Shown here piece by piece: positions 7,608-8,450 of a stretch of 11,850 nucleotides of DNA. The notes below the pieces were generated by a model. That model saw only the letters and a program-made list of their open reading frames with translations, did not search any database and was not told the DNA's origin. The translations under genes and the position numbers were made by a program. Position 1 is the stretch's first letter. Every line of letters starts with the position of its first letter. The DNA is taken from the IMG/VR virus record IMGVR_UViG_3300029190_000061, positions 1-11,850 of that record, one strand, 5' to 3'. Source of the DNA: a virus. Its lineage: Duplodnaviria > Heunggongvirae > Uroviricota > Caudoviricetes.

Positions 7608-7625
7608 AGTAAGTAAATACTTATC
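7608..7625. promoter_or_regulatory. Near-palindromic motif AGTAAGTA-AA-TACTTATC (site B), overlapping the stop codon of the 101-aa gene
   Basis: Direct sequence reading. With its GATA 5' extension (7604..7607) it matches site D at 20 of 22 positions. Confidence 0.45.
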
Positions 7626-7926
7626 TATCTGTGATGCGTTTAGTTGCTATCTTTTTGATCAGGCTCCCCTTTTGTTCCGAAGTTCTCGTGATGATGGCGG
7701 TAAAACGCTTCGCTTGAATAGTGATAGTTTCGTTTTCCTTGAGTTCGCCGTAATGCGTCTCTAACAGGGACCCCAGACGCCACAGACCGTCGTCTATGCG
7801 TTTATGGCTGGCGAATCTGATCAGCAGTAGCTTTACGATTAACTGACCAATGTAAAAGGCAAATCCGAAGCCGGCCGCCACAAGGTAGGTTGCCAGCCAC
7901 CAGTCGAAGGAAGTCAAATTGCTCAT
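7621..7926 (-). CDS. Small membrane protein (101 aa), last gene of the ligase operon
   Basis: Track ORF. ATG at 7926 overlaps the upstream stop as ATGA; GGGAG lies about 10 nt upstream. One hydrophobic segment WWLATYLVAAGFGFAFYIGQLIVKLLLI followed by a basic tail. Confidence 0.55.
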   Translation of the reverse strand: MSNLTSFDWWLATYLVAAGFGFAFYIGQLIVKLLLIRFASHKRIDDGLWRLGSLLETHYGELKENETITIQAKRFTAIITRTSEQKGSLIKKIATKRITDR

Positions 7927-8075
7927 TTTCGCACTCCCGTCTCGTGAACAACCCGATACACACGCTTACCGACACGAAGTGTTTTGGTTTGCAGTTCCTG
8001 CTGGACCAGGGCGCGGCAGATTGCGAGGCCGAGGCCCACGCCACCAGTGAATGATAAAATGATGTATGGAATCAT
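7923..8075 (-). CDS. Putative small membrane peptide (50 aa), MIPYIILSFTGGVGLGLAICRAL...
   Basis: Hand-translated and below the ORF-track size cutoff. Start overlaps the upstream stop as TGATG and the stop overlaps the downstream start as ATGA. GGGGG lies 8 nt upstream. Confidence 0.35.
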   Translation of the reverse strand: MIPYIILSFTGGVGLGLAICRALVQQELQTKTLRVGKRVYRVVHETGVRK

Positions 8076-8287
8076 CAGTATGCCCCCGCCTCAGTCAATT
8101 GCTGCAACAACAAATAACCTTTTTCAGTCAGTTGATAGTTCTCAATACATCCCTTTGGAGAAACGTTGGCGACAAGATTCATGCGCTCCAGTTTGGCTCT
8201 GGTCTTCGGCTTCCAGTTGGCGTAGAACTCCTTCCACTTGCTGATTTCACGCAGGGTTTCCTTCTCTCGTTTACTTAACATGCTCAT
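8075..8287 (-). CDS. Small protein (70 aa), possibly winged-helix DNA-binding
   Basis: Track ORF with a strong SD AAGGAG 7 nt upstream of the ATG at 8287. The C-terminal NYQLTEKGYLLLQQL segment looks like a winged-helix recognition element; this is an impression, not a domain hit. Confidence 0.6.
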   Translation of the reverse strand: MSMLSKREKETLREISKWKEFYANWKPKTRAKLERMNLVANVSPKGCIENYQLTEKGYLLLQQLTEAGAY

Positions 8288-8450
8288 CCTTAATCTCCTT
8301 CAGTGTGTCCGTGATATCTACTATGCGATAAATACGACCTCGCCTTTGCATGACACCGGCTTTTACGTAATCGTGGATACAGCTGGACATAACCAGACTT
8401 CCGATAACAATGCCGACGACTAAAAATACAAACATCCAGCCGAGCATCAT
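8271..8450 (-). CDS. Putative small membrane peptide (59 aa), MMLGWMFVFLVVGIVIGSLVM...
   Basis: Hand-translated; ATG at 8450 overlaps the ligase TGA stop as ATGA, with GGAG about 8 nt upstream. Contains the SD of the next gene. Below the ORF-track cutoff. Confidence 0.35.
   Translation of the reverse strand: MMLGWMFVFLVVGIVIGSLVMSSCIHDYVKAGVMQRRGRIYRIVDITDTLKEIKDEHVK

What the first reader, a model, noticed from the sequence alone, without database searches (positions are those of the whole stretch)
7621..8450. Four small translationally coupled genes downstream of the ligase
Successive start and stop codons overlap (ATGA, a 17-nt overlap, TGATG, ATGA), and each start has an SD-like sequence. 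Three products have a single hydrophobic segment and one is a basic winged-helix-like protein. Two of them fall below the ORF-track cutoff and are easy to miss. Such cassettes in phages are often lysis, superinfection-exclusion or anti-defence functions.
Basis: partly seen in the sequence, partly recalled or inferred. Interest (0 to 1): 0.5.

Follow-up and report, generated by a model that had tools for sequence, protein, structure and literature searches.

The report
Four small coupled phage-plasmid genes
Four tiny overlapping genes after the DNA ligase of an SSU5-type phage-plasmid are real and conserved (three membrane anchors and one small DNA-binding-type protein), but they are already catalogued as hypothetical proteins and their function remains unknown.

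Summary
On the minus strand, four ORFs follow the ATP-dependent DNA ligase: gA 8271-8450, gB 8075-8287, gC 7923-8075 and gD 7621-7926. Their stop/start overlaps are ATGA, 17 nt, TGATG and ATGA. The window is an SSU5-type phage-plasmid, and the ORFs equal SSU5_045-048, each in a PHROG of unknown function. All four are under purifying selection (dN/dS 0.12-0.26, proposed frame best of six). The overlap geometry is kept across about 80 related loci.

In the relative Cyrano, the cassette is silent in lysogens and the lysis genes lie elsewhere. That argues against lysis, lysogen-expressed exclusion or toxin-antitoxin roles.

My best guess, at low confidence, is a lytic-phase inner-membrane accessory module of the replication operon.

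In passing: a covariation-supported pseudoknotted RNA candidate lies just 3' of gD and recurs beside tRNA genes in four phage groups.

The parts
8447..9769 (-). ATP-dependent DNA ligase (440 aa), the upstream gene to which the cassette is coupled
   Evidence: PF01068 E=2.7e-12 and phrog_114 E=7.5e-124. Annotated as DNA ligase in SSU5, Cyrano and pJN2-26.
8271..8450 (-). gA, 59 aa (58 aa from the second ATG at 8447). N-terminal TM segment (about residues 3-22) and a basic tail with the RRGRIYRIV motif. Equals SSU5_045, phrog_4381. Probable paralogue of gC.
   Evidence: dN/dS 0.17. KD19 mean 2.53; K+R is 0 in the N-flank and 3.2 in the C-flank. hhalign against gC E=1.9e-5 over 47 columns. Gap-free joint alignment.
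8075..8287 (-). gB, 70 aa, basic (pI 9.5), soluble minimal winged-helix protein. Equals SSU5_046 / CYRAN_37, phrog_4054.
7923..8075 (-). gC, 50 aa. N-terminal TM segment (about residues 2-20) and a basic tail with the GKRVYRVVHET motif. Equals SSU5_047 / CYRAN_38, phrog_6302.
   Evidence: dN/dS 0.26. K+R is 0 in the N-flank and 4.2 in the C-flank. A divergent 55-aa homologue sits between the ligase and the gD-like gene in L088/L090.
7621..7926 (-). gD, 101 aa. N-terminal TM segment, then a basic tail of about 65 aa (helix, beta-hairpin, poorly conserved C-terminus). Equals SSU5_048 / CYRAN_39, phrog_4507. Misnamed 'C-type natriuretic protein' by PGAP.
   Evidence: dN/dS 0.16. AF2 pLDDT 67, low confidence. 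An exhaustive HMM search found only 19 representatives. It occurs alone, without the ligase, in L092-L094.
8458..8461 (-). GGAG Shine-Dalgarno core, 7 nt before the gA ATG, inside the ligase coding sequence
8295..8300 (-). AAGGAG Shine-Dalgarno, 7 nt before the gB ATG, inside gA
   Evidence: 16/18 unique contexts.
8083..8092 (-). G-rich GAGGCGGGGG before the gC ATG. This is a weak SD in this clade; other clades have AGGAG.
   Evidence: 15/25 unique contexts carry a core.
7934..7937 (-). GGAG Shine-Dalgarno core, 7 nt before the gD ATG, inside gC
   Evidence: 16/20 unique contexts.

Best explanation
**Shown.** The four ORFs are real protein-coding genes. They form the translationally coupled 3' tail of the replication-gene operon (helicase, primase, two unknowns, ligase) of SSU5-type phage-plasmids.
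- gA, gC and gD are single-pass membrane proteins. The positive-inside rule places their very short N-termini outside and their basic tails in the cytoplasm.
- gA and gC are probable paralogues that flank gB.
- gB is a stand-alone minimal winged-helix protein.
- The set is modular: gD alone, gC+gD, gB+gC+gD and all four are each found in nature.
- In the related phage-plasmid Cyrano the genes are transcriptionally silent in lysogens, like the ligase and the structural genes.

**Inferred.** They act during lytic growth, from the cytoplasmic face of the inner membrane, as a dispensable accessory module.

**My preferred specific mechanism** is speculative, about 0.3. gC and gD, duplicated as gA in the SSU5 clade, tether or organise replicating phage DNA or replisome components at the membrane. 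gB would serve as the nucleic-acid-binding or regulatory partner. This is functionally analogous to phi29 p1/p16.7.

I put the anatomical statements at about 0.9. The confidence given below is for the mechanism.
For: - **Coding and coupling.** dN/dS 0.12-0.26 in the proposed frame, conserved -1/-4/-17 overlaps and SD cores. Where gA is deleted (13 loci), gB overlaps the ligase stop by 4 nt.
- **Location.** The cassette always lies at the end of the helicase-primase-...-ligase block.
- **Topology.** One hydrophobic segment each; K+R is about 0 before it and 3.2-4.2 in the 15 residues after it, in every family member.
- **Basic tails.** The gD tail has pI 10.
- **gB winged helix.** The putative recognition helix KTRAKLE is invariant or nearly so.
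- **Lytic timing.** CYRAN_36-39 read log2(FPKM+5) 2.3-3.0 against a floor of 2.32, while the repressor reads 6.4-6.8 and toxin-antitoxin genes 8-9 (PMC9928086 S1 Table).
- **Precedent.** phi29 p1 and p16.7 are small membrane proteins, encoded with the replication genes, that anchor replication to the membrane (PMC4974454).
Against: - There is no direct evidence of DNA binding, of interaction among the four proteins, or of any replication phenotype.
- The gD model is low confidence (pLDDT 67, pTM 0.29) and has no structural match.
- gD occurs without the ligase, gA, gB or gC (L092-94). gC and gD are overwritten by an unrelated 138-aa ORF in some Klebsiella elements. So the four are not an obligate complex, and the module is dispensable.
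- SSU5-type replication uses a DnaB-like helicase, a primase and a polymerase, not phi29-type protein priming, so the analogy is loose.
- The expression data come from a relative with about 70-77% protein identity and cover only uninduced cells. Lytic-phase expression is inferred, not measured.
Confidence: 0.3

Rival explanations
1. The four are not a system. They are independent small accessory genes, packed tightly by overlapping stops and starts at the end of an operon. gB is a stand-alone transcription regulator (for example of a middle or late switch), and the membrane proteins have unrelated roles.
For: Presence and absence are modular: gD alone (L092-94), gC+gD (L088/L090), gB+gC+gD (13 loci) and all four (66 loci). 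Overlapping starts and stops are common in compact phage operons (general knowledge). Many uncharacterised 60-90 aa phage winged-helix proteins resemble gB.
Against: gA and gC are probable paralogues that flank gB, and gC is always immediately upstream of gD when both are present. That suggests at least gC/gD, and gA/gC, are functionally related.
Confidence: 0.22
2. Lytic-phase superinfection exclusion or envelope takeover. Like T4 Imm and Sp, the small inner-membrane proteins are made early in lytic growth and block DNA entry by secondary phages.
For: They are small inner-membrane proteins expressed outside lysogeny. T4 imm and sp are small phage genes that prevent DNA injection (PMC11436027).
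Against: No sequence match to any exclusion family in Pfam, PHROGs or PADLOC. The predicted cytoplasmic tails leave almost nothing in the periplasm: N-tails are 1-4 residues in gA and gC and about 8-14 in gD. That argues against Sp-like action on incoming lysozyme. A DNA-binding partner has no obvious role.
Confidence: 0.17
3. Host-takeover factors that inhibit a host membrane process, such as cell division or a membrane protease or transporter, in the manner of small phage Kil-type or SPO1 gp56-type proteins.
For: Small bitopic proteins co-expressed with early or middle genes. Such inhibitors are typically small ORFan proteins (general knowledge, from memory).
Against: No homology to known inhibitors. 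No phenotype data exist.
Confidence: 0.13
4. Lysis-timing components (holin, antiholin or spanin-like).
For: A single TM segment with a charged C-terminal tail is generically holin-like.
Against: Cyrano has a complete holin-endolysin-Rz-Rz1 cassette about 10 kb away, after the tail-fibre gene. No holin or spanin family hits. The cassette sits in the replication module, and gC and gD are naturally replaced in some elements.
Confidence: 0.04
5. Toxin-antitoxin or plasmid-maintenance module: a winged-helix antitoxin with a small membrane toxin, or a lysogen-expressed defence or moron.
For: A small DNA-binding protein next to small membrane peptides with overlapping genes resembles toxin-antitoxin layout.
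Against: The cassette is silent in lysogens, whereas the element's true toxin-antitoxin pairs (KacAT, HicAB, RelE) are strongly expressed. No toxin, antitoxin or PADLOC family hit. It is coupled to the ligase rather than having its own promoter.
Confidence: 0.03

Closest known systems
SSU5_045-SSU5_048 of Salmonella phage SSU5 (NC_018843), with orthologues in Cyrano (CYRAN_37-39) and pJN2-26 (0094-0097); PHROGs 4381, 4054, 6302, 4507
   Same: Direct orthologues: 80-92% protein identity to SSU5, the same order, the same overlaps and the same position after the ligase.
   Different: Nothing substantive. All are annotated as hypothetical or unknown function. The window copy is 99.8% identical in DNA to an E. 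coli plasmid record.
phi29 p1 and p16.7 (membrane proteins that anchor phage DNA replication)
   Same: Small membrane proteins encoded with the replication genes. For p16.7, an N-terminal anchor with a cytoplasmic part that contacts DNA and replication proteins (PMC4974454). The placement and predicted topology of gD and gC are comparable.
   Different: No sequence comparison was made. The host is Gram-positive and the replication is protein-primed. No DNA-binding evidence exists for gD or gC. This is a working analogy, not a membership claim.
T4 Imm and Sp (lytic-phase superinfection exclusion)
   Same: Small phage-encoded membrane proteins made during lytic growth (PMC11436027).
   Different: No family match. 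The tails here are predicted to be cytoplasmic. No exclusion phenotype has been tested.
MarR/PadR-type winged-helix DNA-binding domains; minimal viral winged-helix proteins (STIV F93, TubR)
   Different: gB is only 70 aa, lacks the MarR dimerisation helices, and has no Pfam or NCBIfam match above threshold. Sequence profile hits to PDB are E>=0.3.

Membership tests
Natriuretic peptide family (the name PGAP gives to gD) | Match to the natriuretic peptide family model | tested here: not met
   No Pfam hit for gD even at E<=1.
Natriuretic peptide family (the name PGAP gives to gD) | Two cysteines forming the 17-residue disulfide ring (established knowledge) | tested here: not met
   gD of the window has no cysteine.
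Winged-helix (wHTH) fold, for gB | Helix-turn-helix followed by a beta-hairpin wing, superposable on solved wHTH domains | tested here: met
MarR family proper, for gB | MarR family sequence model, and N- and C-terminal dimerisation helices (about 140 aa) | tested here: not met
   No Pfam or NCBIfam MarR hit. The protein is 70 aa and covers only the wHTH core.
Holins and spanins | Match to a holin or spanin family | tested here: not met
   None in Pfam or PHROGs. The best PHROGs are all 'unknown function'.
Holins and spanins | Genomic adjacency to an endolysin | tested here: not met
   In Cyrano the holin, endolysin, Rz and Rz1 genes are CYRAN_22-25, about 10 kb from CYRAN_37-39. No endolysin lies next to the cassette in the window or in SSU5.
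Type II toxin-antitoxin modules | Constitutive autoregulated expression in the plasmid or lysogenic state | tested here: not met
   CYRAN_37-39 are at or near the floor (2.32-3.0), against 8-9 for KacAT and HicAB, in LB-grown lysogens. This was measured in a relative, not in this element.
Type II toxin-antitoxin modules | Match to a known toxin or antitoxin family | tested here: not met
   No hits in Pfam, NCBIfam or PADLOC.
Hok/Gef-type small membrane toxins | Hok/Gef family match | tested here: not met
   No Pfam hit for gA or gC at E<=1 other than sub-threshold noise.
Bacterial lipoproteins (gA has ...LVMSSC) | A positively charged n-region plus a conserved lipobox cysteine | tested here: not met
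   No K or R precedes the hydrophobic segment. The cysteine is replaced in some homologues (L062 ...MADRIS).
Known anti-phage defence systems (PADLOC) | Match to a PADLOC model | tested here: not met
   Only one sub-threshold hit (gD to a type IV Cas6 model, E=0.047).
phi29 p16.7/p1-like replication anchors (functional class) | Membrane anchor, and encoded with the replication genes | tested here: met
   TM segments. Position at the end of the helicase-primase-ligase block.
phi29 p16.7/p1-like replication anchors (functional class) | Binding to DNA or replication proteins, and an effect on replication organisation | not testable with these tools
   This requires biochemistry and genetics.
T4 Imm/Sp superinfection exclusion | Family match or an exclusion phenotype | tested here: inconclusive
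   No family match. The phenotype cannot be tested here.

The most novel reading that the evidence does not exclude
gC and gD (plus the gA duplicate) and the winged-helix gB form a previously unrecognised inner-membrane platform. It would tether or organise lytic DNA replication of a Gram-negative phage-plasmid, as a functional counterpart of phi29 p1/p16.7 built from unrelated proteins.
Probability: 0.15. Interest if true: 0.55.

Novelty: already known. Interest (0 to 1): 0.3.

Why it matters
SSU5-type phage-plasmids are common in clinical Enterobacteriaceae. The cassette occurs in 247 of 5,426 complete E. coli genomes and in about 800 plasmid records across Klebsiella, Escherichia, Enterobacter, Salmonella and Yersinia. 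So even an accessory module is widespread.

The practical value here is mostly annotation hygiene:
- all four ORFs are genuine genes;
- gC and gA are often left unannotated;
- the name 'C-type natriuretic protein' for gD is spurious;
- gB can be called a winged-helix protein;
- gA and gC can be called one family.

Functionally these remain conserved unknowns. The evidence narrows the options to a lytic-phase, cytoplasm-facing membrane role and away from lysis, lysogenic conversion or toxin-antitoxin roles. The downstream RNA candidate may be the more original lead.

Tried and rejected
- **Family searches.** Pfam, NCBIfam and PADLOC scans of all four proteins gave nothing above threshold. PHROGs gave only 'unknown function' families.
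- **Word-indexed searches.** Searches with gB, gD and a joint gA+gC profile returned only enterobacterial SSU5-like homologues.
- **Exhaustive profile search.** A gD profile against 1.8 billion representatives gave 19 hits. All were the same family except one marginal repeat protein.
- **Solved structures.** PDB sequence-profile searches gave nothing below E=0.3.
- **gD structure.** The AF2 model is low confidence, and its Foldseek matches (E>=2.8) are meaningless.
- **gB against viral structures.** Only uncharacterised small proteins matched.
- **gD against gA/gC.** Paralogy via the KRFTAxIxRT and GKRVYRVV motifs is not supported by hhalign (E=0.019 and 0.39).
- **Promoters and terminators.** The scan found nothing above the shuffle expectation inside the cassette.
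- **Hairpin at the gD stop (7626-7603).** Its 5' arm lies in the poorly conserved gD C-terminus, so I treat it as chance.
- **Lipoprotein reading of gA.** Rejected.
- **Literature.** A search for 'C-type natriuretic protein' with 'plasmid' returned no papers. A search for a described Felixounavirus tRNA-array RNA was uninformative.
- **Not available.** Complex prediction (multimer) and a dedicated TM predictor.

Full report
**What the window is.** The region 7400-8700 is 99-99.8% identical to unnamed E. coli plasmids and 90.7% identical to Salmonella phage SSU5. More distant copies occur in Escherichia phage Cyrano (77%), Klebsiella phage pJN2-26 (73%) and about 800 plasmid records from Klebsiella, Escherichia, Enterobacter, Salmonella, Yersinia and others. 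In E. coli it is found in 247 of 5,426 complete genomes, always on plasmids. The window is therefore part of an SSU5-type phage-plasmid.

**The observation.** On the minus strand, the ATP-dependent DNA ligase (8447-9769; PF01068, phrog_114) is followed by four ORFs:
- gA, 8271-8450, 59 aa;
- gB, 8075-8287, 70 aa;
- gC, 7923-8075, 50 aa;
- gD, 7621-7926, 101 aa.

- Ligase/gA is ATGA. With the second ATG, which PGAP and most homologues use, it is TGATG.
- gA/gB is a 17-nt overlap.
- gB/gC is TGATG.
- gC/gD is ATGA.

GGAG lies 7 nt before the gA, gB and gD starts. gC has only a G-rich tract in this clade but AGGAG in others. An SD core is present in 10/13, 16/18, 15/25 and 16/20 unique upstream contexts, against 17% of background positions.

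**Are they genes?** They equal SSU5_045-048 and pJN2-26 0094-0097. Each matches a full-length PHROG of unknown function at E of 1e-32 to 1e-58.

I collected 87 related loci, anchored on the ligase in IMG/VR and on gD in GTDB genomes.
- 66 loci have all four genes.
- 13 lack gA; in those, gB overlaps the ligase stop by 4 nt.
- 6 lack a gD hit.

The overlap pattern (-1/-4, -17, -1/-4, -4) persists even where protein identity falls to 60-75%.

Pairwise Nei-Gojobori estimates over unique sequences give dN/dS of 0.17 (gA), 0.12 (gB), 0.26 (gC) and 0.16 (gD), against 0.05 for the ligase. For each gene the proposed frame gives the lowest ratio of the six. The next lowest is the antisense frame that shares wobble positions. 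The pairs are not phylogenetically independent and dS is near saturation, but the direction is unambiguous.

**Annotation.** Automated annotation does miss these genes. gC is absent from the RefSeq annotation of the 99.8%-identical plasmid. gA is absent from the curated Cyrano record, although tblastn finds it intact.

PGAP names gD 'C-type natriuretic protein'. gD has no cysteine and no natriuretic-peptide family match, so the name is spurious.

**The proteins.** gA, gC and gD each have exactly one hydrophobic segment at the N-terminus. Across all family members there is essentially no K or R before it and 3.2-4.2 K/R in the following 15 residues. The positive-inside rule therefore predicts N-out/C-in, with basic cytoplasmic tails.

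gA and gC align end to end without internal gaps and share a G-[RK]-R-[IV]-Y-R-[IV]-V motif. Profile-profile comparison gives E=1.9e-5 over 47 columns. A divergent 55-aa homologue (...LKQDLKTGTVRFGRRVYRVIE) bridges the two. I regard them as probable paralogues. gD is not detectably related to them.

The gD model is low confidence: pLDDT 67, with a long helix, a beta-hairpin and a disordered basic C-terminus. It has no meaningful structural neighbour.

**Distribution.** All three families are confined to enterobacterial SSU5-like elements. Word-indexed searches and an exhaustive profile search of 1.8 billion representatives with gD (19 hits) found nothing outside. The most divergent gD relatives are informative.
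- In L088/L090 the order is helicase, primase, three unknown ORFs, ligase, gC-like, gD-like. The overlaps are TGATG and 8 nt, and there is no gA or gB.
- In L092-L094 there is no ligase, and a gD-like gene follows the homologue of the window's 158-aa protein directly.
- In some Klebsiella elements an insertion carrying an unrelated 138-aa ORF has overwritten gC from codon 26 through most of gD.

So gD is the most widespread part and gC+gD the next core, while gB and the gA duplicate are additions of the SSU5-proper clade. The module is dispensable or replaceable, and it is not tied to the ligase as such.

**Expression and context.** Published RNA-seq of E. coli LF82, which carries Cyrano (PMC9928086, S1 Table), gives log2(FPKM+5) values in LB-grown lysogens. 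The floor of this scale is 2.32.

| Gene | Value(s) |
|---|---|
| Ligase (CYRAN_36) | 2.45, 2.66 |
| CYRAN_37 (gB) | 2.97, 2.32 |
| CYRAN_38 (gC) | 2.32, 2.32 |
| CYRAN_39 (gD) | 2.83, 3.0 |
| Terminase small subunit and capsid | 2.7-3.0 |
| Repressor | 6.4-6.8 |
| KacAT, HicAB toxin-antitoxin genes | 7-9 |

None of the cassette genes is among the paper's lysogeny-expressed 'morons'. The same curated annotation places holin, endolysin, Rz and Rz1 at CYRAN_22-25, next to the tail-fibre gene. No promoter or terminator signal above the shuffle expectation lies inside the cassette.

**Interpretation.** The evidence excludes a spurious-ORF reading. It makes lysis, lysogen-expressed exclusion or defence, and toxin-antitoxin roles unlikely.

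What remains is a lytic-phase accessory module that acts from the cytoplasmic face of the inner membrane. It is co-translated with the replication enzymes and has a small DNA-binding-type partner in one clade.

The mechanism I favour, at about 0.3, is membrane tethering or organisation of replicating phage DNA or replisome components. This is analogous to phi29 p1 and p16.7 (PMC4974454).

The main rivals are:
- the four are simply independent accessory genes packed together (0.22);
- T4 Imm-like exclusion during lytic growth (0.17; PMC11436027);
- inhibition of a host membrane process such as division (0.13).

None of these can be separated without experiments.

**Novelty.** The cassette is already present in public annotation and in PHROGs as hypothetical proteins. 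New here are:
- the quantitative support for coding and coupling;
- the gA/gC paralogy;
- the topology;
- the fold of gB;
- the modular history;
- the use of published transcriptomes to constrain function.

This is a sound but ordinary finding.

**Noticed in passing: an RNA candidate next to the cassette.** Immediately 3' of gD there is a non-coding stretch of about 165 nt (about 7417-7582, minus strand). In the same loci it is more conserved (84-93% nt) than the wider query region that includes the cassette, which is about 73-77% to Cyrano and pJN2-26.

At about 74-81% identity it recurs in 417 phage records from at least four unrelated groups:
- SSU5-like phage-plasmids;
- Felixounavirus and Mooglevirus, inside the tRNA array;
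- Klebsiella siphoviruses of about 46-48 kb, where in DP01 it lies about 400 nt upstream of a tRNA trio;
- Ackermannviridae.

Where tRNA genes lie nearby it shares their orientation, and it is almost never annotated. Rfam 15 has no match at E<=1 apart from a weak tmRNA-fragment hit.

A hand-drawn structure with three helices and a pseudoknot was tested on a 16-sequence alignment.

| Measure | Proposed structure | Partners slid by 1-3 columns |
|---|---|---|
| Cells forming a standard pair | 86% | 24-42% |
| Pairs with changes on both sides | 9 | 2-5 |
| Covariation score | 0.233 | at most 0.116 |

None of 500 shuffles reached the observed covariation score. One helix occurs in four fully complementary versions: CGAGG/CCTCG, CAAGG/CCTTG, TGAGG/CCTCA and CAGGG/CCCTG. 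The pseudoknot helix also occurs in four: GCG/CGC, GCCC/GGGC, GCCCAC/GTGGGC and GGCGGGAG/CTCCCGCC, the last with a compensated GACGGGAG/CTCCCGTC.

In the Felixounavirus copy a near-consensus promoter (TTGACA-17-TATAGT) ends about 7 nt before the conserved block. The window has TTTACT-17-TAAGAT at 7617-7589.

Caveats:
- The single-sequence folding energy is unremarkable (z=0.26).
- The alignment is small.
- I derived the structure from these same sequences.
- No expression data exist.

The RNA is not obligately linked to the cassette. It is absent from L088 and L092 by the motif search, and it lies 1 kb away from gD in L090.

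Noticed in passing
window 7417-7582 (minus strand), between the gD stop (7621) and tRNA-Asn (6803-6877): A conserved structured-RNA candidate of about 165 nt with a pseudoknot. It is absent from Rfam 15. Copies occur in 417 phage records from four unrelated groups: SSU5-like phage-plasmids, Felixounavirus/Mooglevirus tRNA arrays, Klebsiella siphoviruses of 46-48 kb, and Ackermannviridae. Where tRNA genes are nearby it is co-oriented with them. Covariation test: 86% of cells paired against 24-42% when partners are slid; 9 double-change pairs against 2-5; 0 of 500 shuffles. It is possibly an undescribed phage RNA family.
   Followed up: partly
window 7589-7617 (minus strand); L095 and L099 equivalents: Promoter-like TTTACT-17-TAAGAT ending about 7 nt before the conserved RNA block. 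The Felixounavirus copy has near-consensus TTGACA-17-TATAGT at the same alignment columns. This suggests the RNA is its own transcription unit starting near 7582. The -35-like hexamer is the loop of an AT-rich hairpin (7626-7603) that contains the gD stop codon; that hairpin is not conserved.
   Followed up: partly
window 7621-7926 (gD): RefSeq/PGAP names this protein 'C-type natriuretic protein' in hundreds of records. It has no cysteine and no natriuretic-peptide family match, so the name is spurious and has been propagated.
   Followed up: yes
window 7923-8075 (gC) and 8271-8450 (gA); L001, L003: gC is unannotated in the 99.8%-identical RefSeq plasmid NZ_CP100965, and gA is unannotated in phage Cyrano OV696614. 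Both are intact there and under purifying selection.
   Followed up: yes
Cyrano RNA-seq table (PMC9928086 S1), CYRAN_36-39: In the non-LB columns (B6, MB1) CYRAN_37-39 rise to log2 values of about 4.4-6.3, while the ligase reaches only 3.9-4.3. That is roughly 4-5 times more transcript for the small genes. It could reflect an internal promoter (a weak promoter-like site lies at window 8098-8071) or differential stability. Unexplained.
   Followed up: no
L077 4695-5415, L080 4638-5358: In some Klebsiella-type elements an insertion of about 470 nt, carrying a 138-aa ORF with a C-terminal hydrophobic segment, replaces gC from codon 26 through most of gD and leaves a gD remnant. L080 also has a gA that lacks its TM segment.
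   Followed up: partly
window 3796-6548: Relative to SSU5, a block lies between the CobT-like gene and tRNA-Asn. It holds an HTH protein (3796-4194), a site-specific integrase (4189-5292, minus strand), a YafO-family toxin (5593-6009, minus strand) and an overlapping 182-aa ORF (6000-6548, minus strand). Cyrano has the integrase and repressor at the same place.
   Followed up: partly
window 11343-11645 (minus strand); L001 9871-13301: An IS3-family transposase remnant lies upstream of the 270-aa gene. In the near-identical plasmid NZ_CP100965 it is followed by a yehD-type fimbrial operon where SSU5 has its primase and helicase. This element may therefore be a rearranged, possibly replication-defective, phage-plasmid.
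   Followed up: partly
protein P0101: A metagenomic 87-aa protein fuses the ligase N-terminus (MEKLIALKHKLDAIK...) to the C-terminal half of gD. This implies a deletion that removes most of the ligase and gA-gC in some element.
   Followed up: no
window 995-3292 (minus strand): A 765-aa protein with a long acidic, serine-rich, low-complexity middle region. RefSeq annotates its SSU5 and plasmid counterparts as 'porphyrin biosynthesis protein'. It was not analysed here.
   Followed up: no
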